From Patescibacteria group bacterium (lineage in GTDB: Bacteria; Patescibacteriota; Minisyncoccia; Phycocordibacterales; SBAW01), in the NCBI GenBank assembly GCA_016176685.1, contig JACOWS010000001.1, positions 78,113-142,112 on the forward strand: 64,000 nucleotides of DNA. The letters run 5' to 3'. This document shows, piece after piece, positions 2,529 to 63,267 of the stretch (its first letter is position 1; the number at the start of each line of letters is the position of its first letter). The notes below the pieces were generated by a model that saw only the letters and a program-made list of their open reading frames with translations, was not told the origin of the DNA and ran no database searches. A program made the position numbers and the translations under genes.

Positions 2529-3953
2529 TTACCCAAAAAGCCGAAATAACATGCGCAAAAGTTTTTTTGAACGCGGGTTTAATGCACGCCCTTGGTATGT
2601 TTGAGCGGCCCGCTTATTGATTCTTGCGGCGGTCGGGTACGGATAAATCTTAGCAAATAAATCGGCAAGAGACAGGTGGTGTGTCTGCGCCAATATAAGT
2701 TCCTGTATAAGTTCACCGGCATGTGGAGCAATCATCGTCCCGCCCAATATGTTCCCTTTCTTTGAAACATAAATATTTAACAGGCCATCGCGATAATCGT
2801 CTGTGATGGCGCGATCATCATGAGAGAAATGTTCTGTAACTGTTTCGTACTGGACACCGCGCTCTTTAAGCTCCTCGGTGGAAATGCCGAATGTTGCAAT
2901 TTCCGGGTCGGTGAATGTAACCCAAGACAGGTTGTCGTTAACGAGCTTCTGTTTAAACGGGGAAAACCAATTATGGATGATGGTACTGGCATGAAGTTCG
3001 GCTGCGTGCGTAAATTGATATTGTCCGGCGACATCACCGCACACGACAATATTTTTATTGGTTGTGCGCAGGTACTGGTCGACTTTCAGTTTCTGCCCGC
3101 TTTCCTCAAGTTCGATATGAGCCTTTCCCAGATCAAGGCCTTCAATAGCAAGCTGCCTGCCAATACCTACAAATAATGAGTCCACCGGAAGCGACAGTTC
3201 ACGCCCCAAAACTTCCACGACGAGCTCTCTGCCCTCTCGTATATTTTTTGCCCGAGCATGGAAAAGGATATTCATTCCTTCGCCCACCAGTCGCTTATAC
3301 AAAATATCGGTAATATCTTTATCCTCTTTTGGAAGAAATTTTTCTCCTTGTTCAAGAATGGTAACCTGTGAACCCAGGCGTTGAAACGCTTGTCCGAGCT
3401 CTATACCGATAGGGCCCCCGCCTATGACGACAAGATTTTTAGGAAGAAAATCTATGTTGAAGATATTTTCATTGTTAAAGACCCGCGTATGCTCTATTCC
3501 CGGCAATGATATAGCGCGTGGTCGCGACCCCGTTGCCAACACAATACGCTTGCCTTCATACGCCACGCCTCCGACCATAACCTTATTTTGACTAATAAAT
3601 TTAGCTTCCCCCAGAACGACCGACATACCGCTTTTCCGAAACCAATCGGCATTTTCATGCTCGCGGATGATATCCTGCCTACTTTTCACATACGCCATAA
3701 CCGCCCGCATGTCCACCGTACCGGTATGGGTAATCCCAAATTTTTTAATGGTATGTCCCGCATGTACCGCGCGAGCGACATGAATAAGCGCTTTGCTTGG
3801 TACACAACCAAAATTCAAACAATCGCCGCCGATGCTCTTATCACTTTTATCAATGAGCAGGGTTGACAATCCTATGCGGTTTGCAAAAGCGGCGATATTC
3901 AACCCTCCGGAACCGGCGCCGATGACCATAACATCAAATATTTTATTTTTCAT
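2529..3953 (-). CDS. FAD-dependent pyridine nucleotide-disulfide oxidoreductase (Lpd/MerA-like, no C-terminal Cys pair)
   Basis: N-terminal VMVIGAGSGG FAD fold; redox-active GGDCLNFGCVPSK disulfide; second NAD(P) Rossmann VVIGGGPIGIELG. Confidence 0.8.
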   Translation of the reverse strand: MKNKIFDVMVIGAGSGGLNIAAFANRIGLSTLLIDKSDKSIGGDCLNFGCVPSKALIHVARAVHAGHTIKKFGITHTGTVDMRAVMAYVKSRQDIIREHENADWFRKSGMSVVLGEAKFISQNKVMVGGVAYEGKRIVLATGSRPRAISLPGIEHTRVFNNENIFNIDFLPKNLVVIGGGPIGIELGQAFQRLGSQVTILEQGEKFLPKEDKDITDILYKRLVGEGMNILFHARAKNIREGRELVVEVLGRELSLPVDSLFVGIGRQLAIEGLDLGKAHIELEESGQKLKVDQYLRTTNKNIVVCGDVAGQYQFTHAAELHASTIIHNWFSPFKQKLVNDNLSWVTFTDPEIATFGISTEELKERGVQYETVTEHFSHDDRAITDDYRDGLLNIYVSKKGNILGGTMIAPHAGELIQELILAQTHHLSLADLFAKIYPYPTAARINKRAAQTYQGRALNPRSKKLLRMLFRLFG

Positions 3954-20040: not shown

Positions 20041-22457
20041 TTTTTTCCCGCCTTACCTTCGGCGATAAACGGTATCCCCTGGCGCTCCTTTTCACTCATC
20101 ACCTGCTCCATAATATGTTTTATTTTGGGGGCAAGCGCCGCAACCCGCTCCTCCTCTATCTCAAAAACCAACTCGTCGTGTACCTGCAAAAGCAGGTGCG
20201 CCTTGTCGCCATGATTTTCTTTTGTAAATAGTTCGTCCACTTGTATCATCGCGAGCTTCACCAGGTCGGCTTGGGTCCCCTGCATCGGGGCGTTGACCGC
20301 CATGCGCTCGGCCGCCGCGCGCACGTAGGGTATAGGCGAGTGTATGCCCTCAAAGTACCGCCGCCGGCCAAAGTAGGTTTGCGTGTAGCCCTCGCGAGCC
20401 GCCTGTCCTTTTACCTCATCCACATACCGCGCCAAGCGCGGAAAAACTTCGAAGTACTTGTTGTAAAACTCCTGCGCCTCGGCCCGCGAGGTGCCGAGCG
20501 ACTCTTTTAAGGCGTTCACCCCCATGCCGTAGAGAATGCCGAAGTTGATAACCTTGGCGCGGCGACGCTGCTCATACGTTACCTCCTCTGGTTTTATTTT
20601 AAATACGCGCGCCGCCACCTCGGCATGCGCATCCCGACCGCTCTTAAAAATCCCCATGAGCCATGGGTCTTTGGAGAGCAGAGCCGCAATGCGCAACTCT
20701 ATCTGGCTATAATCAAAAGCAACCAGTGCATACCCCTCTGCGGCGACAAACGCGCGGCGTATCGCGCGCCCAAGCTCTGTCTTGATAGGAATGTTCTGCA
20801 GGTTGGGGTTTTGCGAGGCAAGCCGGCCTGTTGAAGTGCCGGTCTGCACAAAAGTGGTGTGCAGGCGGTCTTTTTTGTCGAGCAACATTGGTATTGCGTC
20901 GATGTAGGTGGAAAGGAGTTTGGACAACTCGCGGTATAGAAGTACGTCGGCAATCACCGGGTGCACACCCTGCAGTTTTACCAGCTCGGACTCGCGGGTG
21001 GAACGCGCGCCGCCGGCCGTCTTCTTCTGGTTTTTTGCCGAGAGCCCGAGCTTATCAAACAGCACCTCGCCCAACTGTTTGGGCGAGGAAATGTTAAACT
21101 CGCCGCCCGCCGCCCGGTAAATGCGCCCGGCTATTTTATCGAGCTCGCCGTGGTATTCTGTGGAAAGTTTTTTCAAAAAAGCTCGGTCTATAGAGATGCC
21201 GCGTCGCTCCATCTTGCGCAAAATCGGTATGAGCGGGCGCTCTATCTTCTCGTACACGAAGGTCAGCCCTCTTTTTTCTATCTCCACGAGTATATTTTTT
21301 TTTGCCTCGGCAAAGTCGTGGCTCTTCCCTGCGCGGTAGAGGTCGTCAAGGGTCGGCTCGGTAACGGATGAGTCGAGCAACCACACGGCAACCGCCAGTT
21401 GCTGAAACTCTTCGTCGTCTATAGACGGGGTGCCGGCGGGGCTGCTAGGGTTTTCCGCCAAAACTCCCACTGAAAAAGTCCTCGGTGTCCTCGCGTTGCT
21501 CAAAGCAACGCTTGCGCCAGACTTTTCCAATGGGAGTTTTGGCTCTAAAAGCTCCCGCACGCGCGGTATGAGCGAGCGAAATTCAAGCTCCGACAAAAGG
21601 TCAAGTAAGGGCGTGGGGTTGGCGCTCTCGCGCCAGGTCTTAGCAGGCAGAGTAAAATCTATAGGAACGTCGCGATGTATGGTGGCCAGCTCTTTTGAAA
21701 GCTCGGCCTCTTCCCTCCCCTCTTTTATCTTTTCAAATGTGGCGCCCTTCACCCCGGCCGCCGCAAGCCAATCCGGATGTTTTTCAACCGCATCGTAAAT
21801 TTTTTCAAGCCCCCCGAACTGCGACACCAACGATGTTGCCGTTTTCTCGCCGATGCCTTTAATACCCGGGATATTGTCGGATGGGTCGCCGCGCAACCCT
21901 TTGTAGTCCGGCAACAGTTCAGGACCGAAGCCAAACCGCTCCCTCACCCCCGCCTCGTCGTAAAGCACCGTTTCCGAAAGACCTTTCTTAAGCGTGTAGA
22001 CCCGCACCCGGTCGTCATCCACCAGCTGGAGCGTGTCCATGTCGCCGGACGCGATGATAATGTCAACATTATTCTGATGTTTGAGTTTTTTCACCACAGT
22101 ACCCAACACATCGTCTGCCTCAAAACCCTGCTTCTCGTACCGCGGGATGCCAAAGGCGTCCAAAACATCGCGCGAGCGCTTAATCTGCGCAATTAAATCA
22201 TCCTCGGCCTTGGGGCGGGTCGCTTTGTACTCTTTAAACGCGGCGTGGCGGTAGGTGGGGCCCGGCAGGTCAAACGCCGCGGCAAGGTAGTCTGGCTTCA
22301 GCTCGGCAATAATACGCACCAACATAGAGATGAGCCCGTACAATGCGCCGGTTGGTTCGCCTTTAGAGGAAGAAAAGTCCGGCAGTGCGTGGTACGCACG
22401 GTGCAGTATCGCGTGGGTGTCTAGCAACACTAACCGCTTTCTTTTTTTGGTATCCAT
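20016..22457 (-). CDS. polA: DNA polymerase I (5'-3' exonuclease plus polymerase domains)
   Basis: N-terminal 5' nuclease motifs (LVLLDTHAILHRAYHAL, FDLPGPTYRH), polymerase motifs RRRAKVINFGILYGMG and LLQVHDELVFE; start taken at MDTKKRK. Confidence 0.9.
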   Translation of the reverse strand: MDTKKRKRLVLLDTHAILHRAYHALPDFSSSKGEPTGALYGLISMLVRIIAELKPDYLAAAFDLPGPTYRHAAFKEYKATRPKAEDDLIAQIKRSRDVLDAFGIPRYEKQGFEADDVLGTVVKKLKHQNNVDIIIASGDMDTLQLVDDDRVRVYTLKKGLSETVLYDEAGVRERFGFGPELLPDYKGLRGDPSDNIPGIKGIGEKTATSLVSQFGGLEKIYDAVEKHPDWLAAAGVKGATFEKIKEGREEAELSKELATIHRDVPIDFTLPAKTWRESANPTPLLDLLSELEFRSLIPRVRELLEPKLPLEKSGASVALSNARTPRTFSVGVLAENPSSPAGTPSIDDEEFQQLAVAVWLLDSSVTEPTLDDLYRAGKSHDFAEAKKNILVEIEKRGLTFVYEKIERPLIPILRKMERRGISIDRAFLKKLSTEYHGELDKIAGRIYRAAGGEFNISSPKQLGEVLFDKLGLSAKNQKKTAGGARSTRESELVKLQGVHPVIADVLLYRELSKLLSTYIDAIPMLLDKKDRLHTTFVQTGTSTGRLASQNPNLQNIPIKTELGRAIRRAFVAAEGYALVAFDYSQIELRIAALLSKDPWLMGIFKSGRDAHAEVAARVFKIKPEEVTYEQRRRAKVINFGILYGMGVNALKESLGTSRAEAQEFYNKYFEVFPRLARYVDEVKGQAAREGYTQTYFGRRRYFEGIHSPIPYVRAAAERMAVNAPMQGTQADLVKLAMIQVDELFTKENHGDKAHLLLQVHDELVFEIEEERVAALAPKIKHIMEQVMSEKERQGIPFIAEGKAGKNWGEMKPL
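21467..21551. repeat. 85-bp nested palindromic element (family B), inside polA coding sequence
   Basis: outer inverted repeat CCAAAACTCCCACTG/CAATGGGAGTTTTGG flanking core AAAAAGTCCTCGGTGTCCTCGCGTTGC-TCAAA-GCAACGCTTGCGCCAGACTTTT; same core at 58648-58732. Confidence 0.75.
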
Positions 22458-22464
22458 AGATTCT

Positions 22465-22499
22465 GGGACTTCGTAAGTCCTCGGGGACTTACGAAGTCC
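22465..22499. repeat. perfect 15-bp-arm palindrome spanning tsaE stop and polA 5' leader
   Basis: GGACTTCGTAAGTCC-TCGG-GGACTTACGAAGTCC; right arm encodes tsaE C-terminal RTS-stop, left arm lies 8 nt upstream of polA ATG. Confidence 0.65.
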
Positions 22500-22944
22500 T
22501 AATATCAATATACCGCTCTTTCTCCCCTGCATTTTCGGACGAGAATTGTAGCGTCATATCGGGTACGGGGAGTGCACCCCCGACCCGCTCCGGCCACTCG
22601 ATGCACACCAGGTTGTGCGGGTCTTCTAAAAACCGCTCGGGCCGCAGAGCCGCAAACTCCTTAGCGCCCTCCAAACGGTAGGCATCTATGTGTATGAGGC
22701 GCGCAAAGCGCGGATGGTGCGGTATGTGGTAGCTCTTCATCAATACATAGGTAGGGCTTTGTATAGTGTCTGCTATACCAAGCTCTTTTGCGAGTGCCTG
22801 CACAAACGTGGTCTTCCCGGCTCCCAAGTCGCCCAGCAAGGCAATTATGGTCGCTTTGTTGCCTTGCAAATCCTTGGCGAAGTTTGGACCAGCCAACAGT
22901 CTGTGTACAAAATCTCCGAGCCTCTTCAGCAGCACTTTTTCCAT
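22489..22944 (-). CDS. tsaE: tRNA threonylcarbamoyladenosine biosynthesis protein TsaE
   Basis: ALLGDLGAGKTTFVQALAK Walker A and IQSPTYVLMKSY segment typical of YjeE/TsaE. Confidence 0.8.
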   Translation of the reverse strand: MEKVLLKRLGDFVHRLLAGPNFAKDLQGNKATIIALLGDLGAGKTTFVQALAKELGIADTIQSPTYVLMKSYHIPHHPRFARLIHIDAYRLEGAKEFAALRPERFLEDPHNLVCIEWPERVGGALPVPDMTLQFSSENAGEKERYIDIRTS

Positions 22945-26064: not shown

Positions 26065-26592
26065 ATGGCGGGACACAGTAAATGGGCGAAGTTGAAGCAT
26101 GTTAAGGGTAAAACCGATGCGCAAAAGAGCAAGGTCTTTTCCAAACTCGTGCGCTTTATCTCGGTTGAGGCAAAAAAGTCTAAGGGTGACCGCTCTGCCC
26201 CCGGGTTGCGCGCGGCGGTTGAGAAGGCGCGCGCGGCAAACATGCCGCAGGAAAACATAGACCGCGCGATAGACAAAGCATCAACGTCCGGAGAGCTAGA
26301 GCCGGTGGTATATGAGGCATACGGCCCCGGCGGCGTGGCGCTCATAATCGACGGGTACACCGACTCGCGCAACCGCACCGCGCAGGAAATAAAGCACCTT
26401 CTTTTGCTCCACGGCTCCTCATTGGCAACCCCGGGCGCAGCCAGCTGGGCGTTTAGCAAAAATGCGGAAGGAGCGCTTGAGCCCATGACTGCGGTCGAAA
26501 TTTCCGAAGAAGACGGGCAGAAGCTCGCCGAGCTCGTTGACGCGCTGGAAGAGCACGACGATATCAACAATGTATACACCAATGCGGCGTAA
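26065..26592 (+). CDS. yebC: YebC/PmpR-family transcriptional regulator (short form)
   Basis: MAGHSKWAKLKHVKG N-terminus diagnostic of the YebC (DUF28) family. Confidence 0.75.
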   Translation: MAGHSKWAKLKHVKGKTDAQKSKVFSKLVRFISVEAKKSKGDRSAPGLRAAVEKARAANMPQENIDRAIDKASTSGELEPVVYEAYGPGGVALIIDGYTDSRNRTAQEIKHLLLLHGSSLATPGAASWAFSKNAEGALEPMTAVEISEEDGQKLAELVDALEEHDDINNVYTNAA

Positions 26593-26633
26593 AGGTTCGA
26601 CCTTGAAGAGCCTGGGTGTTAAGGTCGAACCTT
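26592..26633. repeat. 42-bp palindromic element (family A) copy 1
   Basis: AAGGTTCGACCTT-16 nt-AAGGTCGAACCTT; first A's overlap yebC TAA stop; lies just before ruvC start. Confidence 0.75.
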
Positions 26634-26641
26634 GGAGAGTT

Positions 26642-27118
26642 TTGGCGTGCGACCCCGGTTTTGAGCGGCTGGGTGTTGCGGTGCTAGAAAAAAATTATTC
26701 TACAAACTCAAAGCAAGAAAAATTCTTATACTCCGACTGCATCCGCACTGATGCAGCGCTTCCATTCCACAGGCGGCTACAGATTATTGGTTCTGCGGTC
26801 GAACTTCTTTTAAAAGAGTGGCGGCCGGATGCGGTGGCGCTTGAGGATGTGTACTTTGCTAAAAACGAAAAGACCGCGATGAAGATAGCCGAGGTGCGGG
26901 GCATGTTGACCTACCTTGCCGTGTTGCAGGGTCTGCCATTGTTTGAGTACTCGCCCGCCGAGGTTAAGGCCGCTGTCACCGGGTACGGCAAGGGTGACAA
27001 GCGGGCGGTAGCCGTCATGGTGCCCAAGCTCATTGCACTGCCGCAAAAAAAGCGCCTGGATGACGAGCTTGACGCCATTGCGGTGGGCCTTACCTGCCTG
27101 GCCTCGGCAAGATTTTAG
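26642..27118 (+). CDS. ruvC: crossover junction endodeoxyribonuclease RuvC
   Basis: VLACDPGFERLGVAVLE matches RuvC N-terminal ILGIDPG..TG motif; start uncertain (TTG at 26642 chosen to avoid overlap with yebC and the repeat). Confidence 0.7.
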   Translation: MACDPGFERLGVAVLEKNYSTNSKQEKFLYSDCIRTDAALPFHRRLQIIGSAVELLLKEWRPDAVALEDVYFAKNEKTAMKIAEVRGMLTYLAVLQGLPLFEYSPAEVKAAVTGYGKGDKRAVAVMVPKLIALPQKKRLDDELDAIAVGLTCLASARF

Positions 27119-27247
27119 CTACGCTAGGATTGGCCGCAGGGTAATAACCGGCAGATATCCACAGGCACTACTGATACTGATTGCAAAATTAGGCAGGTTT
27201 GGTACAAACTGGTCATTGGGCTAATTATCAACCGTAGCATTGCTTGT

Positions 27248-27382
27248 ATGTATATGCGCGAGGAGTTTGAACTAGAGGATCCCCTGCTCGATGAGATGGG
27301 TGACGATGCAGAAACGGATGACAAGGCGGAGGAAGAGGAGGATGCGGACGAAGAAGAGGCGGCTGATAGCGAAGAAGTGTAG
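27248..27382 (+). CDS. small highly acidic peptide (44 aa), hypothetical
   Basis: ATG-initiated ORF MYMREEFELEDPLLDEMGDDAETDDKAEEEEDADEEEAADSEEV ending 5 nt before a strong terminator hairpin. Confidence 0.2.
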   Translation: MYMREEFELEDPLLDEMGDDAETDDKAEEEEDADEEEAADSEEV

Positions 27383-27386
27383 GGTA

Positions 27387-27430
27387 AAAACAAAACCCCC
27401 TCCGCCAACTGGCGGAGGGGGTTTTGTTTT
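27387..27430. terminator. bidirectional rho-independent terminator
   Basis: perfect 20-bp arms AAAACAAAACCCCCTCCGCC-AACT-GGCGGAGGGGGTTTTGTTTT between convergent genes. Confidence 0.6.
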
Positions 27431-27431
27431 T

Positions 27432-27473
27432 AAGGTTCGACCTTGGAGAGCCCTGATTTTAAGGTCGAACCTT
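27432..27473. repeat. 42-bp palindromic element (family A) copy 2
   Basis: AAGGTTCGACCTT-GGAGAGCCCTGATTTT-AAGGTCGAACCTT; right arm encodes tyrS C-terminal KVRP-stop. Confidence 0.75.
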
Positions 27474-28631
27474 AATTCGTACAAATCGGTGCTTGCCGAT
27501 CTTGAGTGTCGCACTCGTAAGCTCGGCTTCAATACTCGCCACTTTTTCTCCGCCAGCTACCTCTACGGCGCCGGCGGCCACCAGCCGGCGCAGTTCTCCT
27601 ATAGAAAGACCGAGGGTCCCCGCTGTATCGCGCAGCTTGGTACCATGGGGAACTACGACCTCCTCTGCGTCGTCCGGCTTCATAAATCCGGCGGCCGCCT
27701 TTTCTGCCGCATCTTTGCCGTGGTAGAGCGTAACAATTTCTTTTGCCAAGCGCATCTTTGCCTCCTTGGGGTGCAGGGCCATTATTTCTTCAATAGCTTC
27801 CGTGGGTACGCGAGTGCAGAGTGTGAAGTATCTCTCAACCAGTTCGTCTTTGACTGACATAATCTTCCCGTACATATCATTTGGCTTGTCGAGGACATTT
27901 ACTACATTACCCCACGACGAACTCATCTTTCGTCCGTCAGTTCCTTCAAGGAGTTCCAGCGTCATGATATCCTGCGGCTCCTGGTTATAAAGCTTTTGAA
28001 TATTTCTTCCAGCCAAAAGGTTGAAGCGCTGGTCCGTGCCGCCAAGTTCGACGTTCGCACGCACGGCGACAGAATCATAACCTTGCATGAGCGGATACAA
28101 CAGTTCATGGAAAGATACCCGCTGTCCCGCATCCATCCTTTTTGAGATGAGCTCGCGGGACGCAAACTCGTTGAGCCCAAACAAGCTCGCCATTTTGGTG
28201 AGTTCGAGAAATCCCAGCTTGTCGAGCCATTTGGAGTTGTAATGAGTCTCGGTCTTTTGCGGGTCGAGTATTTTGAATGCCTGATCAAAATAGGTCTTCA
28301 TGTTTTTCCCGACCCTCTCTTGGGTGAGCATTGGCCTTTCTGCCTCCTTGTCGGAAGTGTCCCCCACGACTCCTGTCGCGTCGCCAACAATAAAGACCGC
28401 CGTGTGACCGAGGTCTTGAAACGCTCTAAGTTTCCAAAGTGCTACCGCGCGGCCGATGTGGAGGTCGGGAGAGGTTGGGTCGATGCCGAGCTTTACGCGT
28501 AGTCGCTCGCCGGAAAGAAGCCGCTTGCGCAGTGAGTCTTTGACAATCACCTCGGTAACCCCGCGGGTCAAGAGCTCGTCCACCTTTTTTTCGTCTGTGA
28601 TAACCCTGGGGTGTCGCGTAAACAGCCGCAT
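27459..28631 (-). CDS. tyrS: tyrosyl-tRNA synthetase
   Basis: class I aaRS: GIDPTSPDLHIGRAV (HIGH) and KMSSS (KMSKS) motifs; C-terminal S4-like domain. Confidence 0.9.
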   Translation of the reverse strand: MRLFTRHPRVITDEKKVDELLTRGVTEVIVKDSLRKRLLSGERLRVKLGIDPTSPDLHIGRAVALWKLRAFQDLGHTAVFIVGDATGVVGDTSDKEAERPMLTQERVGKNMKTYFDQAFKILDPQKTETHYNSKWLDKLGFLELTKMASLFGLNEFASRELISKRMDAGQRVSFHELLYPLMQGYDSVAVRANVELGGTDQRFNLLAGRNIQKLYNQEPQDIMTLELLEGTDGRKMSSSWGNVVNVLDKPNDMYGKIMSVKDELVERYFTLCTRVPTEAIEEIMALHPKEAKMRLAKEIVTLYHGKDAAEKAAAGFMKPDDAEEVVVPHGTKLRDTAGTLGLSIGELRRLVAAGAVEVAGGEKVASIEAELTSATLKIGKHRFVRIKVRP

Positions 28632-36387: not shown

Positions 36388-36396
36388 AGGTTTCGC

Positions 36397-36492
36397 AAAA
36401 AACAGGCGTGGGGGAGAGCGGGAATTTCCTGCTGATAAATTCCCTCGCCTCGGCGCCGTCGCGCCTCAGACTCTCCCCCACGCCTGTTTTTT
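36397..36492. repeat. long nested inverted repeat / bidirectional terminator-like structure
   Basis: AAAAAACAGGCGTGGGGGAGAG ... CTCTCCCCCACGCCTGTTTTTT (22-bp arms) enclosing inner GGGAATTT..AAATTCCC hairpin; between convergent jag and T4SS-locus terminal gene. Confidence 0.45.
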
Positions 36493-36499
36493 GCTTTCT

Positions 36500-51982: not shown

Positions 51983-52232
51983 GGATAAGTACAGGGTCAG
52001 GCCGTTGTGAAAATGGCTCTGTTAAGCCACCGATTGGAAAAAACGACCATGGCTTGCTCGATTTAGGCTTATAAACTCCCCTAAAACAGACCCTTCTCCT
52101 GCGGTTGAGCCGTATTCTGCAGAGAAGGCTAAAAAGCCGTTATTTCACAAGCTCTTCATAGAGGTTGCTCCTGTTCTTTTATCTATTACGCCTCTTTTTA
52201 TACCCGCAGGCATCCTCTCCTTCTTTCACGGA

Positions 52233-53192
52233 TTGTTTGCGCCACCCGCACAAGCGGCGGCTACCCAAGCATTAGCACTCAACTCCCAAACACTTCCCCT
52301 ACTTGCACCGGCGATAAACCTCGACCCAAACCCAGCAAAAGGAGGCGGCGGCATCACCGTGGTTGACGGCACGGCGCTTTTGCCGGCAGAAGGTCCGTCA
52401 GGCACCGCAGCCGACATAGAAGAGTGGCCGACCTCCTCGCAGGTGTCGGTGTATACCGTGCGGCCAGGCGACACCCTGTCGCAGATTGCAGAGATGTACA
52501 ACGTTTCCATCAACACCATCATTTGGTCAAACGACATTGCGGGTGGGGTGATCCGCCCCGGCGACAGTTTGGTAATACTCCCTATCACGGGAATCAAACA
52601 CACGGTGACCAAGGGTGAAACACTTTCCTCAGTAGCTAAAAAGTTTAATAGCGATGCTACCGAAATCGCCCAGTACAACGGTCTTGAGGCGGGTGCGCCG
52701 CTTGCGGTGGGGGCCTCTATAATCATCCCCCATGGTGAGATAGCTGCAGCCCCCGCTCCCGCCAAGAGTACTAAAACAAAAGTTCCTTCCGCACCGCTGC
52801 ATGACGCGGGCGGGCCCGACCTCGGCGGCTACTGGGTCTTGCCTATTGCAAGCGGCATTGTCACCCAAGGGCTCCACGGCTACAATGGCGTTGACATCGG
52901 CGCGCCAAAAGGAACCGATATTTATGCTGCGGCTGGCGGCATTGTGCTGGTTGCACGCTCTAGCGGATGGAACGGCGGCTACGGCATCTACCTGGTTATC
53001 CAGCACGACAACGGCACGCAAACACTCTACTCGCACGCAAGCAAGATACTGGTCTCCGCGGGAGACCGTGTCGCGCAAGGACAAACTATAGCGCTGGTCG
53101 GCGCAACCGGCCTTGCAACCGGCAACCACCTCCACTTCGAAGTCCGTGGCGCCAAAAACCCGCTCGGCAACTTACCAGTCGGCACGCGGTAG
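52233..53192 (+). CDS. LysM-domain M23-family peptidoglycan endopeptidase
   Basis: two LysM repeats (YTVRPGDTLSQIAEMY; HTVTKGETLSSVAKKF) and M23 catalytic motifs (HGYNGVDIG, GNHLHFEV); annotated from a TTG start, but see finding on upstream in-frame signal-like extension. Confidence 0.8.
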   Translation: MFAPPAQAAATQALALNSQTLPLLAPAINLDPNPAKGGGGITVVDGTALLPAEGPSGTAADIEEWPTSSQVSVYTVRPGDTLSQIAEMYNVSINTIIWSNDIAGGVIRPGDSLVILPITGIKHTVTKGETLSSVAKKFNSDATEIAQYNGLEAGAPLAVGASIIIPHGEIAAAPAPAKSTKTKVPSAPLHDAGGPDLGGYWVLPIASGIVTQGLHGYNGVDIGAPKGTDIYAAAGGIVLVARSSGWNGGYGIYLVIQHDNGTQTLYSHASKILVSAGDRVAQGQTIALVGATGLATGNHLHFEVRGAKNPLGNLPVGTR

Positions 53193-53204
53193 TAACCCTC
53201 TCTA

Positions 53205-53241
53205 GAAAAAACCGCCGGCCCCAAAAGGCCGGCGGTTTTTA
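53205..53241. terminator. bidirectional rho-independent terminator
   Basis: AAAAAACCGCCGGCC-CCAAAA-GGCCGGCGGTTTTT. Confidence 0.6.
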
Positions 53242-53269
53242 TAAGACTATCTTCAGGATAGGAGTCCTG

Positions 53270-53542
53270 CTATTTCTTAACTTTCCCCAACACATAGATT
53301 GTGCGGAGGACGTTAGAAGGGTCGGATTGAACATGCAGAATCGTGTATTTTCCAGTCTTCAATAGGGTATTAACTTTATTAGGACCGTTTCTGTCAGTCT
53401 CGGTAACTATTTCGTAAATCACACGGCTCTTGTGCCAGGCCACAACAGAAACAACAATGGCCGCAAAGCTCAGGATTAAAGGTGTGTACTGTAGAATGCT
53501 TCCACCCATTGTGATTATGCGATTTATCAGTTCGTATTCCAA
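53270..53542 (-). CDS. small membrane protein, hypothetical (low GC)
   Basis: 90 aa, one to two TM helices, GC about 40%. Confidence 0.4.
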   Translation of the reverse strand: MEYELINRIITMGGSILQYTPLILSFAAIVVSVVAWHKSRVIYEIVTETDRNGPNKVNTLLKTGKYTILHVQSDPSNVLRTIYVLGKVKK

Positions 53543-53581
53543 AATATAGACTTATTATAGCCTTTTCTATAAGGTTATTCT

Positions 53582-55039
53582 ATGGAAGACGACGAGATGA
53601 AAAAACGATATAGGCAACATGTTGATTCGATAATCAAAAGAGCCCAACTGGTAGCATTTGAAAACTATACACAAATGTTCCCTTGGTTTATCCGAGCTTT
53701 AAGATTGTCTAGAATCCCTTTCTTAAAGAGAAATCATTTTTGGGTCGGAGTGCTCCAGTTAGGCATGTTGAGGAACCTTCCTCGGTTTCAAGGCTGGCTT
53801 AGAGAAACACGAGTAAAGTTAGAGGGCGATGTACTCGGTGCTAAAGAGAGGGAGCATTTAGAACACGTCGCTCTCATTCAACAAGAGTGGATAAGGATAT
53901 ACCAGACCATCATTGACGGAGTTGTGTGGCGTGTTTTAAATTTTAATCGGCCAGTACTTCGTTTGTTGTCGGAGAATGAGGGTCCAGGACATATCCACCC
54001 TCCCTACGCTGATATTTTAAGAAAGTTTATTGACAGCTCTGACACAGTCCTAATCAATGACCTGTCCAGGTATCTTCGCATTGGTGATTTAACAAGGGTC
54101 ACCAAAGAAGGAAAGATACTTTTATATGAGCTTAAGAAAAGTGGCCGTGTTGTTAGTGGTATGTCGGACATCTTCAAAGAGGCGAGAAAGCATGGCTCAG
54201 GCAGTATAAGTAAACAAAGGCATAGACACTGGACAGCTCAAATGAGCATAGCCAGTCAATCAATAAACATCCCTGTTATTTCTGGGGACATGGTTAGAGA
54301 GGATCACCGAGCCGACATAGTTGATTCTAGTATAAAAATCTTCCATCATTTCAAAGCTATAAAAGATCTTATCAAAAAAGCAGACAGAACTGGATTTGAA
54401 CAAAAAGAAGTTGAGGAAGGTTACTTCATCGAGGTTACTGCATTCGATACGATACTTGCTTCGGTCAAGGAAGATGATGTAGAAAAAAATCCGATGATGC
54501 AAAGGAAACTTCATGCTGAAGAACAAAGACCGGAGTGGCTTAAAGCTAAAGCGGCACGGACCATAGATTTATCCAGTCTTGAGTCTTTTGTGTATGAAGG
54601 AACTCAGTTTCCAAGAAATTTCACTCCCCAGTCTGTGTTGCCTTTTTCATCAAGAAACTGTGTCCGTCTAATGATGGGACATCTAGAGATAAGGGTTTAC
54701 TACAACATAGAGTTTTTAAAAAAACGACTCCAAGAGAGGGGTTGGCAAGTTAGAGAAGTAGAGCGTCTCGCGGAGCCGATGAGAGAAAGGACGCTCACTG
54801 GCGAGTTTCTACCCGAGCTACCGAGTGAAGATTTTCTCGATTTGTCTAAACGGGATGGCGACGGAGAGTATCATACAATCGTCCCCCTAACTCTTATTTT
54901 GATTGCTCTTTCCTCTTACTATGCAACAGACTTTCTTCTGAATGCTATAGAAGACGGCTTCGAAAGAAGCAGAATCGAAAGACCTTCGGGCAGACAAGTC
55001 ACGATTAACTTTACTCAGGAGCATGCAGTTTTGGTGTAA
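53582..55039 (+). CDS. hypothetical protein of low-GC islet; possible PD-(D/E)xK nuclease-like core
   Basis: 485 aa, no family recognised; mid-protein IGDLTRVTKEGKILLYELKKS fits a D-x14-E-x-K nuclease-like spacing; GC about 40% versus about 60% in flanks. Confidence 0.5.
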   Translation: MEDDEMKKRYRQHVDSIIKRAQLVAFENYTQMFPWFIRALRLSRIPFLKRNHFWVGVLQLGMLRNLPRFQGWLRETRVKLEGDVLGAKEREHLEHVALIQQEWIRIYQTIIDGVVWRVLNFNRPVLRLLSENEGPGHIHPPYADILRKFIDSSDTVLINDLSRYLRIGDLTRVTKEGKILLYELKKSGRVVSGMSDIFKEARKHGSGSISKQRHRHWTAQMSIASQSINIPVISGDMVREDHRADIVDSSIKIFHHFKAIKDLIKKADRTGFEQKEVEEGYFIEVTAFDTILASVKEDDVEKNPMMQRKLHAEEQRPEWLKAKAARTIDLSSLESFVYEGTQFPRNFTPQSVLPFSSRNCVRLMMGHLEIRVYYNIEFLKKRLQERGWQVREVERLAEPMRERTLTGEFLPELPSEDFLDLSKRDGDGEYHTIVPLTLILIALSSYYATDFLLNAIEDGFERSRIERPSGRQVTINFTQEHAVLV

Positions 55040-55138
55040 GTGGTGCTGTATGCCCCCACGTTCACGTCTCGTGAATGTTTGGTGCCTAGTTGGTGGTATC
55101 TACCATCTCTCAAACCAAGGTTTTCGGGACGCAAAGGA

Positions 55139-55579
55139 TCAACTAATGATTCCCTTGTTCCATGACAAGACAAATTCTGGGTGGAACTTGTGGCCAGACA
55201 CCATCATCTTTGCGATTGTCTCAAATGAAAAAAATTCCACCCTCTCAACTTCTGTGGGGTCTAGGGTAAACGGACCGTTGTGATGAGTTCTGTATATCCA
55301 CAGTTCTGTCTCTCGCGTAACAGATGGCTTCCAAGCCGGATAGGTGTAGTTTTCTTCGGTTACAAACTCAATATCTATTTTGACTCCAAGCTCCTCAAAT
55401 AACTCTCTTTCTGCAGAGGCCTTCTCGGCTTCTCCAGGGTCAATACCACCACCAGCAGAAAAATCCCAGTGTGATGGAAACGAGTCATCATGAGCGGCGC
55501 GCAACTGTAGAGCCAACTCGCCCTTATCATTGAAAACCATTATTGCTGAGCTTTTCTTATGTTCTATCATGAATATCAC
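55139..55579 (-). CDS. NUDIX hydrolase
   Basis: Nudix box GGGIDPGEAEKASAERELFEELG. Confidence 0.7.
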   Translation of the reverse strand: MIFMIEHKKSSAIMVFNDKGELALQLRAAHDDSFPSHWDFSAGGGIDPGEAEKASAERELFEELGVKIDIEFVTEENYTYPAWKPSVTRETELWIYRTHHNGPFTLDPTEVERVEFFSFETIAKMMVSGHKFHPEFVLSWNKGIIS

Positions 55580-55630
55580 TCTACATCAGTACTTTAAGAG
55601 ATGAAACGTTATTTGTGAGGTGAAACTCAT

Positions 55631-57193
55631 TTATGCTTTGTGCCCTCGGTACTGGAGCGCCTCTAGCACGTGCGGCTCTAAAATCTCCGGAGCTCCCTCG
55701 ATGTCTGCTATGGTGCGCGCCACTTTTATCACTCGGTGGAAGGCGCGCGGAGACAGGCTCAATCGCTCGCCCGCTTTTTCTAGCGTGGAGCGCACCTCGG
55801 GTGCCAATGGCACCAGCAGGTCGAGCTCGCGAGGCGATAGGTCGCTGTTCATCTTTCCTTTGGTATTAAATCTTTTTTCCTGCGCGGCGCGCGCTTTTTG
55901 TACCTGTGCCCGTGCCTTTTTTGTCTCACTCCCCTCTTTGTTGCGGTACCCCAGCGTGCGCAACTCCACCGGCCCCATGGTAACCCACAGGTCTACACGG
56001 TCGGCTATGGGGCCGGAGATTTTGCGGCGATAGCGCTCAAGACTCATAGGGGTACAGATGCACGAGAGGTTTGGGTGCCCCCAGTTGCCGCAGGGGCACG
56101 GATTCATTGCCGCCACCAGGCAAAACCGAGCGGGGAATATTGCCGAGCCGCGCGCGCGAGCAACCGATATTACCCTGTCCTCCAGCGGCTGGCGCAGCGC
56201 CTCGATGACCCTCCGGTCAAACTCGGGGAACTCGTCCAGAAACAAAACTCCTCGGTGCGCCAGCGTGGCCTCGCCCGGGCGCGGGGTGGCGCCGCCGCCA
56301 ACTATAGAAACGTAGGAGGAGGTGTGATGCGGCGCGCGCATAGGCGGCATGGTCAAAAGTTTGCCGCGCAGAGTGCCGGCAACCGAGTGTATACTGTTGA
56401 CCTCGAGCATTTCCTCAAAAGTGAGCGGCGGCAAGACAGAGGCAAGCGCGCGCGCAAGCATGGTTTTGCCGGTACCGGGCGGCCCCTGGAGTCCCAGGTT
56501 GTGCCCGCCGGCCGCGGCTATCACCGCCGCGCGCTTGGCGCTTTCCTGCCCGCGGATGTCTTCAAACGCGAATTGCGTTTCTGTTTCACCCGGCTCCAGC
56601 TTGGTTTGCGGAGTGGGGGTAAGGTTCGACCTTGGAGAGCCTTGGTGTAAGGTCGAACCTTTGGCGCTCGTTTTTTTAGTATCCAAATGCTCAACCACTT
56701 CGCGCAAGGTGGAAACACCAAACACGGTGATGCCGGGCACCAGCGCGGCCTCGTCGGCGTTTTCTTTCGGGACAAATACTTGCCGCTTACCCAACCGCTT
56801 TGCCTCTGCCACTAACGGCAAAATGCCGCGCACGCCGCACACTTCGCCCTTAAGCGAAAGCTCGCCGACAAAAAGACACCGCTCGGGGTCAAAGCGTATG
56901 TCTCCCGCCGCCAGGAGGTAGGAGAGTGCAATAGGCAGGTCAAACATCGGCCCCTCTTTTTTTAGGTCGGCGGGCGCTAGCGAAATGACTATCTTTTGGT
57001 TGCGGCTCTTAGGCGAGTCAAAGCCGGCATGTTTTATTGCCGCGGCCACCCGGTCGCGGCTTTCTTCTACCGCTTTGTCGGGGAGCCCCACCAGGGTAAA
57101 AGCGTGGAGACCGCGCGAGAGGTCTGTCTCTACTGACACCAGGTAGGGAGTCAGCGCCAGCGTTTCGGCCCCGTAGACGCGTGCATACTGCAT
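55631..57193 (-). CDS. comM: YifB/ComM-family Mg-chelatase-like AAA+ ATPase
   Basis: N-terminal Lon-protease-like domain (VETDLSRGLHAFTLVGLPDKAV), AAA+ GPPGTGKTMLA, VLFLDEFPEF, C-terminal Mg-chelatase domain. Confidence 0.85.
   Translation of the reverse strand: MQYARVYGAETLALTPYLVSVETDLSRGLHAFTLVGLPDKAVEESRDRVAAAIKHAGFDSPKSRNQKIVISLAPADLKKEGPMFDLPIALSYLLAAGDIRFDPERCLFVGELSLKGEVCGVRGILPLVAEAKRLGKRQVFVPKENADEAALVPGITVFGVSTLREVVEHLDTKKTSAKGSTLHQGSPRSNLTPTPQTKLEPGETETQFAFEDIRGQESAKRAAVIAAAGGHNLGLQGPPGTGKTMLARALASVLPPLTFEEMLEVNSIHSVAGTLRGKLLTMPPMRAPHHTSSYVSIVGGGATPRPGEATLAHRGVLFLDEFPEFDRRVIEALRQPLEDRVISVARARGSAIFPARFCLVAAMNPCPCGNWGHPNLSCICTPMSLERYRRKISGPIADRVDLWVTMGPVELRTLGYRNKEGSETKKARAQVQKARAAQEKRFNTKGKMNSDLSPRELDLLVPLAPEVRSTLEKAGERLSLSPRAFHRVIKVARTIADIEGAPEILEPHVLEALQYRGHKA
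56621..56661. repeat. 42-bp palindromic element (family A) copy 3, in-frame inside comM
   Basis: AAGGTTCGACCTT-GGAGAGCCTTGGTGT-AAGGTCGAACCTT; on the coding (minus) strand it is translated as ...AKGSTLHQGSPRSNLTP... in the inter-domain linker. Confidence 0.75.
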
Positions 57194-63225: not shown

Positions 63226-63233
63226 CAACCTCT

Positions 63234-63262
63234 AGCCCGGCAAGGTTAAACCTTGCCGGGCT
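63234..63262. terminator. bidirectional rho-independent terminator
   Basis: AGCCCGGCAAGG-TTAAA-CCTTGCCGGGCT followed by AAAAATT. Confidence 0.55.
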
Positions 63263-63267
63263 AAAAA

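What the first reader, a model, noticed from the sequence alone, without database searches (positions are those of the whole stretch)
26592..26633. Second palindromic element family (42 bp, 13-bp terminal inverted repeats AAGGTTCGACCTT / AAGGTCGAACCTT) at gene ends and in-frame inside comM
Three copies share the arms and the start of a 15-16-nt spacer (GRAGAGCCYKGRTKT): 26592-26633, 27432-27473 and 56621-56661. Copy 1 begins inside the yebC stop codon and ends just before ruvC. Copy 2 supplies the last four codons (KVRP) and the stop of tyrS. Copy 3 lies inside comM and is translated as AKGSTLHQGSPRSNLTP in the Lon-like/AAA+ linker. A REP/MITE-like element that both terminates genes and embeds in coding sequence is unusual.
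Basis: seen in the sequence. Interest (0 to 1): 0.7.

Follow-up and report, generated by a model that had tools for sequence, protein, structure and literature searches.

The report
Mini REPIN hairpins written into genes
The three 41-42-bp palindromes are copies of a tiny hairpin-forming mobile repeat of the REP/REPIN kind. It is paired elsewhere with its own RAYT-type transposase, is spread through ultra-small Patescibacteria, and unusually often sits in-frame inside essential genes and inside 23S rRNA loops.

Summary
Three copies with perfect 13-nt inverted arms (AAGGTTCGACCTT / AAGGTCGAACCTT) and related 15-16-nt loops lie at 26592-26633, 27432-27473 and 56621-56661.

Relatives provide empty sites for two copies. 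The tyrS copy is absent from a genome whose TyrS is 91% identical. The yebC-ruvC copy is absent from one at 78%. Neither site shows a target-site duplication.

An arm-pair pattern (11 nt of each arm) recurs in at least 116 stretches from 57 assemblies, nearly all Patescibacteria.
- Of 122 copies, 65 lie in-frame inside long ORFs (LeuRS, DnaG, UvrA, PNPase, SMC, GatB, ComM).
- Three of the remaining copies lie in 23S rRNA hairpin loops.
- Arm pairing is kept by compensatory changes: 97.5% of cells paired, 9 of 13 pairs changed on both sides.

In four Patescibacteria assemblies and one gammaproteobacterial symbiont, a Y1/HUH transposase gene is flanked on both sides by these units. Its best curated match is "REP-associated tyrosine transposase". 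That arrangement is the hallmark of REP/REPIN-RAYT systems.

No such gene lies in the 64-kb window. Mobility is inferred from comparisons, not shown directly.

Verdict: a new variant of a known kind.

The parts
26592..26633 (.). Copy 1 (42 bp). Arms 26592-26604 and 26621-26633, loop GAAGAGCCTGGGTGTT. It lies between the yebC stop codon and the ruvC start codon.
   Evidence: The empty site is in relative L207: 'gcgTAAgcgcgttTTGgcc' there against 'gcgTAA-AGGTTCG...CGAACCTTGGAGA-gttTTGgcg' here, a net gain of 42 nt with no target-site duplication.
27432..27473 (.). Copy 2 (42 bp). Arms 27432-27444 and 27461-27473, loop GGAGAGCCCTGATTTT. It overlaps the 3' end of tyrS on the minus strand and encodes KVRP plus the stop codon.
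   Evidence: It is absent from L206, whose TyrS is 91% identical: '..aaaatagtggtcaagTAAaaacaaaaccc' there, so 9 nt are replaced for a net gain of about 32-33 nt. It is present in a 99%-identical TyrS, P0122.
56621..56661 (.). Copy 3 (41 bp). Arms 56621-56633 and 56649-56661, loop GGAGAGCCTTGGTGT. It lies in-frame in the comM linker (minus strand) and is translated as KGSTLHQGSPRSNL.
   Evidence: DNA comparison with L118 (empty site) and L120 (filled, with one arm mutation) is.
63231..63265 (.). A single-unit relative: tagcccggc-AAGGTTAAACCTT-gccgggcta. It is one mini-palindrome with a centre variant, on its own extended stem (a REP-singlet-like unit).
   Evidence: The same kind of singlet flanks RAYT-like genes and occurs in other genomes. 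Its membership in the family is inferred from the shared AAGGT..ACCTT core.
26065..26592 (+). yebC (host context for copy 1).
   Evidence: ORF. Pfam TACO1_YebC is recorded on the identical contig L001.
26642..27118 (+). ruvC (host context for copy 1). The start TTG 26642 is assigned by homology. A GGAGAG motif at 26634-26639, just after the element, could serve as its ribosome-binding site.
   Evidence: The ribosome-binding role is inference.
27459..28631 (-). tyrS (host of copy 2). Its last four codons and stop codon come from the element.
55631..57193 (-). comM / YifB-type Mg-chelatase-like AAA+ ATPase (host of copy 3).
   Evidence: (Pfam ChlI, Mg_chelatase and Mg_chelatase_C on the orthologs).

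Best explanation
The three palindromes are REPIN-like elements. Each consists of two inverted copies of a 13-nt REP-like mini-palindrome (A/G)AGGT-NNN-ACCT(T/C) around a 12-17-nt loop.

They belong to a repeat family spread through Patescibacteria (mainly Paceibacteria/Parcubacteria lineages).

The most likely mechanism is the one proposed for REP/REPIN-RAYT systems. A RAYT-type HUH/Y1 tyrosine transposase, encoded once elsewhere in the genome and itself flanked by the same units, recognises the hairpin in single-stranded DNA. It cuts and rejoins the DNA, copying or moving the non-autonomous doublet in trans without a target-site duplication.

New copies survive only where a roughly 40-nt hairpin is tolerated:
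- between genes;
- at gene ends;
- in flexible protein linkers and surface turns, where the stop-free arms are simply translated;
- in terminal loops of rRNA helices.

What is shown: the repeat family, its hairpin constraint, empty versus filled sites, the intragenic and rRNA locations, and the physical association with a Y1 transposase gene in other genomes.

What is inferred: that this enzyme moves the elements, the single-stranded-DNA mechanism, and that the window's own genome has or had such a gene.
For: 1. Family size. At least 116 stretches in 57 assemblies match GGTTCGACCTT-N12-20-AAGGTCGAACC.

2. Fixed architecture. The arms occur 127 times in the order TCG..CGA, twice in the opposite order and never as direct repeats.

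3. Hairpin constraint.
- In 162 relaxed matches, 90 changed pairs are compensatory, 19 are wobble pairs and 2 are mismatches.
- On the 28 distinct arm pairs, 97.5% of cells are paired and 9 of 13 pairs change on both sides. None of 500 shuffles reach this, and slid controls reach at most 58%.

4. Insertion events. Empty sites exist for copies 1 and 2 in relatives. Copy 2 arose after a lineage with 91% TyrS identity split off.

5. Lineage enrichment. The window has 3 copies in 64 kb. Eighty comM neighbourhoods from other Patescibacteria have 2 copies in 772 kb. One genome (CAYHEQ01) yielded about 30 copies in the loci fetched, mostly intergenic, in three loop subfamilies.

6. Transposase link.
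- The L043 ORF 2657-3349 matches Pfam Y1_Tnp (E = 2.9e-13, 50.4 bits, cutoff 23).
- Its only NCBIfam hit is NF047646, REP-associated tyrosine transposase (E = 3e-13).
- The HUH motif (NHFH) and a Tyr (SYIHLN) are invariant in 10 homologs.
- Homologs occur in 10 of the 116 element-selected loci against 1 of 80 control loci.
- In L043/L054, L077, L108 and L090 the gene has canonical units within 7-62 nt of both ends and one unit inside it.
- More distant homologs are flanked by their own, different palindromes. This matches known RAYT-REP co-variation (PMC5581495, PMC3116915).
Against: - No RAYT-like ORF lies in the 64-kb window or in about 120 kb from its closest relatives. The rest of that genome could not be read.
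- The RAYT-like protein scores 49.9 bits against a curated cutoff of 80 for NF047646. Its match to solved Y1 transposases is weak (E = 0.11).
- The GTAG/CGTC tag typical of REPs is absent.
- 53% of copies are intragenic, whereas REPs are by definition extragenic.
- At the ComM and LeuRS sites all carriers share the same junction, frame and loop class. Yet they are scattered as single leaves on the gene trees. Simple transposition does not explain this.
- In the five relatives' comM copies, which were retrieved without the DNA pattern, the arms are 81-96% identical to the window's copy. The adjacent, protein-constrained coding DNA is only 70-91% identical. This hints at selection or gene conversion rather than a purely selfish, decaying element.
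- No transposition has been observed directly.
Confidence: 0.7

Rival explanations
1. A host-selected structural signal. The hairpin, as DNA cruciform or RNA stem, would be a binding or processing site for a conserved Patescibacteria factor. It would be kept by purifying selection at fixed sites in housekeeping genes and rRNA, and would no longer be mobile.
For: - Arms are perfect in six LeuRS, four DnaG and two UvrA orthologs whose flanking codons are only about 70% identical.
- In the comM copies retrieved without the pattern, arms are 81-96% identical, loops 47-80% and flanking coding DNA 70-91%.
- Covariation is strong.
- The core is shared across many candidate phyla.
Against: - Most ComM (104 of 120) and LeuRS (about 100 of 120) orthologs do without it.
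- Close relatives have clean empty sites.
- Copies occur in both loop orientations relative to the host gene and in several reading frames, so a strand-specific RNA role is unlikely.
- Copy number varies hugely between genomes.
- The perfect arms were selected by the search pattern itself.
Confidence: 0.15
2. A DNA-uptake-signal-like motif, analogous to Neisseria DUS or Haemophilus USS. Competence machinery would prefer DNA carrying the 13-mer. Alleles carrying it would then spread between lineages by transformation and homologous recombination.
For: - Carriers are scattered on the ComM and LeuRS trees with identical junctions, as expected for allele spread by recombination.
- Many hosts are genome-maintenance genes: comM, ruvC junction, uvrA, dnaG, smc.
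- Inverted pairs at gene ends resemble DUS pairs. This last point is from my own knowledge of DUS biology, not tested here.
Against: - In the window every 13-mer is part of a doublet with a family-specific loop, so the copied unit is the roughly 40-nt element and not the motif.
- Density is about 1 per 20 kb or less, against about 1 per kb for known uptake signals (own knowledge).
- Flanking residues at the ComM site follow each lineage, not the other carriers.
- A transposase association exists.
Confidence: 0.06
3. A classical MITE. It would be a deletion derivative of an insertion sequence whose DDE transposase binds the 13-bp terminal inverted repeats in double-stranded DNA.
For: Perfect terminal inverted repeats, small size, and dispersed copies with subfamilies.
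Against: - Neither empty-site comparison shows a target-site duplication.
- The length of 38-46 bp is below the usual MITE range.
- No IS with matching ends was seen in the roughly 1.8 Mb of fetched DNA surveyed for element copies (about 0.84 Mb of it chosen for carrying them).
- The only gene recurrently flanked by the units is a Y1/HUH transposase.
- Each arm is itself a hairpin, which suits single-stranded-DNA recognition.
Confidence: 0.05
4. Chance similarity or an assembly/adapter artefact.
For: None found.
Against: - 0 of 100 shuffles give the observed count.
- The same copies are present in an independent assembly of another read set (L001).
- Copies occur in 57 assemblies from many studies. 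They are in-frame in genes, show compensatory variants and are restricted by lineage.
Confidence: 0.01

Closest known systems
REP/REPIN-RAYT systems (E. coli REP/BIME with TnpA_REP; Pseudomonas fluorescens REPINs; PMC3116915, PMC3337134, PMC5581495, PMC3479197)
   Same: - The unit is a short imperfect palindrome.
- Units occur mostly as inverted doublets that form a hairpin, and singlets are rarer.
- There are many dispersed copies with subfamilies.
- A Y1/HUH transposase gene is flanked by the units.
- Different transposase clades carry different palindromes.
- No target-site duplication is seen.
   Different: - The unit is much smaller: a 13-nt core and a 38-46-bp doublet, against about 20-40-nt REPs and roughly 100-nt REPINs.
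- There is no GTAG/CGTC tag.
- About half of the copies are inside genes, in-frame, or inside 23S rRNA.
- The same core is shared across many candidate phyla instead of being species- or genus-specific.
- The transposase scores below the curated RAYT threshold.
- I found no report of such a system in Patescibacteria in the searchable literature.
Rickettsia palindromic elements (RPEs)
   Same: Palindromic repeats that insert in-frame into unrelated housekeeping genes and are translated as extra peptide segments at tolerated positions (PMC10969869).
   Different: RPEs are about 100-150 bp, restricted to Rickettsia, unrelated in sequence, and have no known associated transposase. The elements here are about 40 bp, occur in Patescibacteria, and are linked to a RAYT-like gene.
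Bacterial MITEs (Correia/NEMIS, ERIC, QMITE and others)
   Same: Non-autonomous, with terminal inverted repeats, able to fuse to or end ORFs and to be co-transcribed (PMC10969869, PMC5896051).
   Different: MITEs normally have target-site duplications, are 50 bp or longer, and derive from DDE-type insertion sequences. None of this was seen here.
Intervening sequences (IVS) of 23S rRNA in helices 25 and 45 of Salmonella, Campylobacter and others (from my own knowledge, not checked here)
   Same: Extra stem-loops placed in terminal loops of 23S rRNA helices. The L106 copy sits in the loop that aligns with the ...CCGAAG..GGUAGGGGAGCGUUC hairpin (Rfam LSU model near position 1213), which I take to be helix 45.
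   Different: IVSs are longer and are excised by RNase III. Whether these inserts are excised is unknown. Here the insert is a member of a genome-wide repeat family.
DNA uptake sequences (Neisseria DUS, Pasteurellaceae USS)
   Same: A short conserved motif shared by a clade, found inside genes and as inverted pairs at gene ends.
   Different: Density is lower by more than tenfold, and the motif is copied only as part of a roughly 40-nt unit with its loop. No link to uptake has been shown.

Membership tests
REP/REPIN-RAYT | A short imperfect palindrome repeated many times in a genome | tested here: met
   The 13-nt core AAGGT-NNN-ACCTT gives 3 doublets and 1 singlet in the 64-kb window and about 30 copies in the fetched parts of assembly CAYHEQ01. 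At least 116 stretches in 57 assemblies carry it.
REP/REPIN-RAYT | Units arranged as inverted doublets that can form a hairpin (REPIN) | tested here: met
   There are 127 doublets in one fixed order, 2 in the other and 0 direct. Pairing is 97.5% with 9 of 13 pairs covarying. Folding z-scores are -4.7 to -7.8.
REP/REPIN-RAYT | A Y1/HUH (RAYT) gene flanked by the same palindromes | tested here: met
   Met in other genomes. L043/L054, L077, L108 and L090 have units within 7-62 nt of both gene ends. Homologs occur in 10 of 116 element loci against 1 of 80 control loci.
REP/REPIN-RAYT | A RAYT gene present in the same genome as the window's copies | tested here: inconclusive
   A profile search of all 303 window ORFs of 80 aa or more found none. 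The rest of the genome (an NCBI contig of 143,526 nt and others) could not be read.
REP/REPIN-RAYT | The protein belongs to the RAYT family (HUH motif, one catalytic Tyr, curated model) | tested here: inconclusive
   Pfam Y1_Tnp scores 50.4 bits, above its cutoff of 23. The HUH motif and the Tyr are invariant. NCBIfam NF047646 is the only hit, but its 49.9 bits fall below the cutoff of 80.
REP/REPIN-RAYT | A conserved GTAG or CGTC tetranucleotide at the foot of the hairpin (PMC3733652, PMC6006769) | tested here: not met
   Flank logos of 121 copies show only a weak C at -3 and G at +3, and no GTAG or CGTC.
REP/REPIN-RAYT | Extragenic location | tested here: not met
   65 of 122 copies lie inside long ORFs and 8 overlap gene ends. 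At least 3 of the copies scored as intergenic lie in 23S rRNA.
MITE | Terminal inverted repeats | tested here: met
   The 13-bp arms are perfect.
MITE | Target-site duplication flanking each copy | tested here: not met
   Neither empty/filled comparison shows a duplication. Instead 4-9 nt of the target are replaced. Flanks beyond the arms are complementary rather than direct repeats when they match at all.
MITE | A parent IS with the same ends and a DDE transposase | tested here: not met
   None was seen in the roughly 0.84 Mb of element-bearing loci. The recurrent neighbour is a Y1 transposase. Whole genomes were not searchable.
Rickettsia palindromic elements | In-frame insertion of a palindromic repeat into unrelated protein genes | tested here: met
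   Hosts include LeuRS, DnaG, UvrA, PNPase, SMC, GatB and ComM, in several reading frames.
Rickettsia palindromic elements | RPE sequence families of about 100-150 bp in Rickettsia | tested here: not met
   The elements are 38-46 bp and occur in Patescibacteria. Sequence relatedness to RPEs was not compared directly.
DNA uptake sequences | Very high density (about 1 per kb) of the bare motif, mostly as single copies | tested here: not met
   The window has 6 motif copies in 64 kb, all within 3 doublets. Control loci have 2 doublets in 772 kb.
DNA uptake sequences | Preferential uptake of DNA that carries the motif | not testable with these tools
   This needs transformation or uptake assays.
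Intrinsic terminator | A G+C-rich hairpin with a short loop followed by a T-tract | tested here: not met
   The scan found 0 terminator-like sites in 26300-27700. The loops are 15-16 nt and no T-run follows any window copy in the direction of transcription. Some copies in other genomes do sit in CAAAACAA..TTGTTTTG contexts.

The most novel reading that the evidence does not exclude
Patescibacteria would carry an old, largely vertically inherited REPIN-RAYT partnership whose roughly 40-nt hairpins are a recurrent source of the lineage-specific insertions seen in their essential proteins and rRNAs.

On this reading the arms are actively kept intact, by selection or by RAYT-dependent maintenance, because the hairpins have acquired a host-level role. 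One possibility is a role as recombination or uptake signals that let short allele tracts spread between lineages.

This would explain three things together:
- the phylum-wide conserved core;
- the identical junctions at scattered tips of the ComM and LeuRS trees;
- arms that are better conserved than the surrounding coding DNA.
Probability: 0.25. Interest if true: 0.8.

Novelty: new variant of a known kind. Interest (0 to 1): 0.6.

Why it matters
- REP/REPIN-RAYT systems have mainly been described in Proteobacteria and a few other groups, and are defined as extragenic. Here a miniature version appears in the reduced genomes of Patescibacteria. About half of its copies are written in-frame into essential genes, and some into 23S rRNA loops.
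- This offers a concrete, testable source for part of the unusual protein and rRNA insertions reported for this radiation.
- It warns annotators that gene starts, gene ends and "linker" peptides in these MAGs can be element-derived. In this window, a gene caller placed the ruvC start inside the element, and the TyrS C-terminus was rewritten.
- It provides a defined pair for biochemistry: the 13-nt hairpin and a 230-aa Y1 transposase.
- The shared core across many lineages, and in one gammaproteobacterial symbiont, raises questions about how such systems persist or move between hosts.

Tried and rejected
- **Known RNA family.** Rfam at gathering level finds only two tRNAs in the window. Long hairpins give only sub-threshold microRNA-like hits.
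- **Terminator reading.** No terminator-like sites at copies 1 and 2.
- **Viral vector.** The doublet pattern has 0 hits in 2.9 million viral contigs. The three viral relatives of the RAYT-like protein are distant (33-38%) and lack AAGGT-type palindromes.
- **Ordinary IS200 as the mobiliser.** The IS200-type TnpA in L106 (5177-5608) is not flanked by the elements.
- **Target-site duplication or target motif.** None found in flank logos or at the empty sites.
- **Solved-structure link.** The single sequence gave only spurious hits. The 10-sequence profile gave a weak hit to ISDra2 TnpA over the HUH region (E = 0.11).
- **ComM structure.** The aim was to show that the insert lies in a disordered linker. 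The model was poor (mean pLDDT 52.8), so I did not use it. The hypervariable linker in the 121-sequence alignment carries that point instead.
- **Reading beyond the window.** Two look-ups with end-proximal ORFs found nothing on record.
- **Literature.** No paper in the held library contains the 13-mer. Papers containing both 9-mers are unrelated. No paper was found linking Patescibacteria with REP, RAYT or MITE elements.
Full report
**1.

The window has three copies with perfect 13-nt inverted arms AAGGTTCGACCTT / AAGGTCGAACCTT, at 26592-26633, 27432-27473 and 56621-56661. The loops are 16, 16 and 15 nt long and related to one another.

The exact 13-mer occurs six times and only in these three pairs. 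No shuffle of the window approaches the observed count. On either strand each copy folds as single-stranded DNA into the 13-bp hairpin, at -12.4 to -14.8 kcal/mol with z-scores of -4.7 to -7.8.

- Copy 1 begins in the yebC stop codon.
- Copy 2 encodes KVRP and the stop codon of tyrS.
- Copy 3 is translated inside comM.

Each arm is itself a 5+3+5 mini-palindrome (AAGGT-TCG-ACCTT). The element is therefore a doublet of two inverted small palindromes. An identical 7.9-kb contig from an independent assembly carries copies 1 and 2, so they are not assembly artefacts.

**2. A large family restricted by lineage**

By my estimate about 0.6 matches were expected by chance.

Nearly all hits are Patescibacteria. 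The labels include Kaiser-, Adler-, Zambryski-, Vogel-, Lipton- and Lloydbacteria, Paceibacterota, Minisyncoccia and a Microgenomates bin, plus several unlabelled MAGs. One outlier is the gammaproteobacterial symbiont Thiodubiliella.

The arms occur 127 times in the order TCG..CGA, twice in the reverse order and never as direct repeats. Loops are 12-17 nt, asymmetric and fall into subfamilies (GRGAATTCGGRYTT, GGAGAGCCYTGR.., GGAGAAGTTCGAAGCT).

The family is patchy. Eighty comM neighbourhoods from other Patescibacteria metagenome contigs (772 kb) hold two copies, both in one locus. The window holds three in 64 kb, and one assembly (CAYHEQ01) yielded about 30 in the loci fetched. No copy was found in viral contigs.

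**3. The hairpin is maintained**

Among 162 relaxed matches, 90 changed base pairs are compensatory, 19 are wobble-type and 2 are mismatches. Variation concentrates in the outermost pair (AA..TT versus GA..TC) and the central triplet.

On the 28 distinct arm pairs, 97.5% of cells pair and 9 of 13 pairs change on both sides. None of 500 shuffles reach this, and slid controls reach at most 58%.

**4. Evidence of insertion**

- A relative whose TyrS is 91% identical (L206) has '..aaaatagtggtcaagTAAaaacaaaaccc'. The window has '..cgaatt-AAGGTTCG..CGAACCT-TAAaaacaaaaccc' at that place.
- A relative at 78% (L207) has 'gcgTAAgcgcgttTTGgcc' between yebC and ruvC. The window has the element plus GGAGA there, a net gain of 42 nt.
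- Neither site shows a target-site duplication, and a few target bases are replaced.
- TyrS orthologs normally end ..KIVVK*. Here the end reads ..RIKVRP*, a net gain of one residue.
- By homology the ruvC start is TTG 26642. A gene caller chose a TTG inside the element instead.

At the comM site:
- 104 of the 120 closest orthologs lack the segment, and 16 carry G[SPLQ]TL-x5-6-R[SP][ND]L at the same linker position.
- The nearest ortholog without it (87% identical) is 27 nt shorter there.
- In all five relatives' comM genes whose DNA I read at the element site, the peptide comes with the palindromic DNA. Several of these copies have compensated arm variants.

**5. Where copies survive**

Of 122 copies, 65 lie inside long ORFs, 8 overlap gene ends and 49 are intergenic.
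- Hosts include LeuRS, DnaG, UvrA, PNPase, SMC, GatB and ComM.
- Several reading frames are used (GSTL, RFDL or KVRP with RSNL, GRTL or KVEP). Both loop orientations occur, 36 antisense to 17 sense.
- The arms have no stop codon in any frame (read directly from the sequence).
- At least three of the copies scored as intergenic are in 23S rRNA genes, in terminal loops of conserved hairpins. L106 has one near Rfam LSU model position 1213. L079 and L003 have one near position 282.

The element therefore persists where a roughly 40-nt hairpin or a roughly 14-residue hydrophilic loop is tolerated.

**6. The link to a transposase**

Clustering of ORFs around the copies showed a recurrent 220-250-aa protein.
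- The L043 member (2657-3349, minus strand) matches Pfam Y1_Tnp (E = 2.9e-13, above the gathering score).
- Its only NCBIfam hit is NF047646, 'REP-associated tyrosine transposase' (E = 3e-13, but 49.9 bits against a cutoff of 80).
- Ten homologs share invariant YH.YNRG, NHFH (the HUH motif), G.LFQ and SY..LN (Tyr).
- Homologs occur in 10 of the 116 element-selected loci and in 1 of 80 control loci.
- In L043/L054, L077, L108 and the Thiodubiliella locus L090, the gene has canonical units within 7-62 nt of both ends and one more unit inside the ORF.
- More distant homologs are flanked by other palindromes of their own.

A Y1 transposase gene flanked by the dispersed palindromes is the defining arrangement of REP/REPIN-RAYT systems (PMC3116915, PMC3337134, PMC5581495). 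An ordinary IS200 TnpA in L106 is not flanked by the units.

The window itself has no RAYT-like ORF, and the rest of its genome could not be read.

**7. Most likely mechanism**

By analogy with characterised RAYTs (PMC3479197, PMC6006769), the enzyme would recognise the hairpin in single-stranded DNA. It would cut and rejoin the DNA without duplicating the target, moving the doublet in trans. This step is inferred.

Within the window's lineage, the recent tyrS copy and the yebC-ruvC copy carry loops of the same GRAGAGCC class as the older comM copy. The comM copy is shared with a 94%-identical relative, where it has one arm mutation. This fits propagation within the genome.

**8. What remains unexplained**

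- At the ComM and LeuRS sites all carriers share junction, frame, loop orientation and loop-length class, which suggests one origin per site. Yet carriers are scattered as single leaves on neighbour-joining trees. Many losses, short-tract allele transfer or very site-specific re-insertion would each fit.
- The LeuRS site also hosts other insert types, including another back-translated palindrome (VRTSDV..TSDVQ) and a whole hydrolase domain. It is therefore a permissive hot spot.
- In the five relatives' comM copies, which were retrieved without the pattern, the arms are 81-96% identical to the window's copy. The loops are 47-80% identical and the flanking coding DNA 70-91%. This points to constraint, gene conversion or a younger age.

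These points keep a host-function reading and a DUS-like reading alive at low probability.

**9. Comparison and verdict**

In architecture and in its transposase association, the family works like a REPIN-RAYT system. It departs from that kind in several respects:
- size (13-nt unit, 38-46-bp doublet);
- lack of a GTAG/CGTC tag;
- a core shared across a whole radiation;
- frequent in-frame and rRNA locations, a behaviour otherwise known from the much larger Rickettsia RPEs (PMC10969869).

I found no description of it in the searchable literature. I rate it a new variant of a known kind, of moderate to good interest.

Noticed in passing
window 21454-21543, 58644-58733, 36395-36494: A different hairpin family with 24-nt perfect or near-perfect inverted arms 39-52 nt apart. 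Two copies share an 86-nt alignment (77% identical).
   Followed up: no
window 22456-22509: GGACTTCGTAAGTCC, 4 nt, GGACTTACGAAGTCC. This is another doublet of 5+3+5 mini-palindromes with a different core. Doublets with the same GACTTACGAAGTC core occur in locus L102.
   Followed up: partly
window 27385-27432: A perfect 23+23-nt palindrome (TAAAAACAAAACCCCCTCCGCCA / TGGCGGAGGGGGTTTTGTTTTTA) directly abuts copy 2. It is conserved in relative L206 and looks like a bidirectional terminator between a 44-aa ORF and tyrS.
   Followed up: partly
window 52000-56000 (ORF 53582-55039): A lower-GC stretch (0.48 against 0.55-0.58 on either side) holding a 485-aa ORF of no obvious identity, next to comM.
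   Followed up: no
L106 2854-2893; L079 1786-1821; L003 633-667: Family members lie inside 23S rRNA genes, in terminal loops of two conserved hairpins (Rfam LSU model near positions 1213 and 282). They act as expansion segments, and the L106 insert looks nested within a longer palindrome.
   Followed up: yes
LeuRS orthologs P0241-P0360, segment between SEGA.L.F and I.VFTTRPDT: This surface turn is a hot spot for several unrelated inserts. They include the AAGGT family (RFDL..QGRTL), a 'VRTSDV..TSDVQ' type that back-translates to an ACGTCCGACGT/ACGTCGGACGT inverted repeat, 'ISNSQFS' types, and a whole alpha/beta-hydrolase domain.
   Followed up: partly
ComM orthologs P0028, P0034, P0048, P0087, P0119 (linker): A second recurrent linker insert, 'RRSEVGVPTEASGK / RRPEGVGTPTKALGK', sits at the same ComM position. 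It may come from another palindromic element family, but its DNA was not examined.
   Followed up: no
L082 6655-6693; L090 6153-6889: The gammaproteobacterial symbiont Candidatus Thiodubiliella carries TTGAC-AAGGTYSRACCTT-GTCAA units. It also has a RAYT-like gene (37% identical to L043's) flanked by them. This points to horizontal transfer or convergence of the system across phyla.
   Followed up: partly
L043 3141-3160; L077 278-290; L108 1241-1253; L090 6649-6661: The RAYT-like genes themselves contain one unit in-frame at a conserved variable position (for example ..KRQGSTLLELL..). The transposase gene therefore carries its own target-like hairpin.
   Followed up: partly
L076 5410-5438, 5896-5924, 6097-6119; L010 1672-1698, 2173-2203; L084 3881-3901, 4622-4682: More distant RAYT-like genes in other Patescibacteria are flanked by their own palindromes (ACTTGGAGGCT/AGCCTCCAAGT, ACTTGGGGGT/ACCCCCAAGT, TGTGGACGCC/GGCGTCCACA). 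This suggests several parallel REP-RAYT pairs in this radiation.
   Followed up: partly
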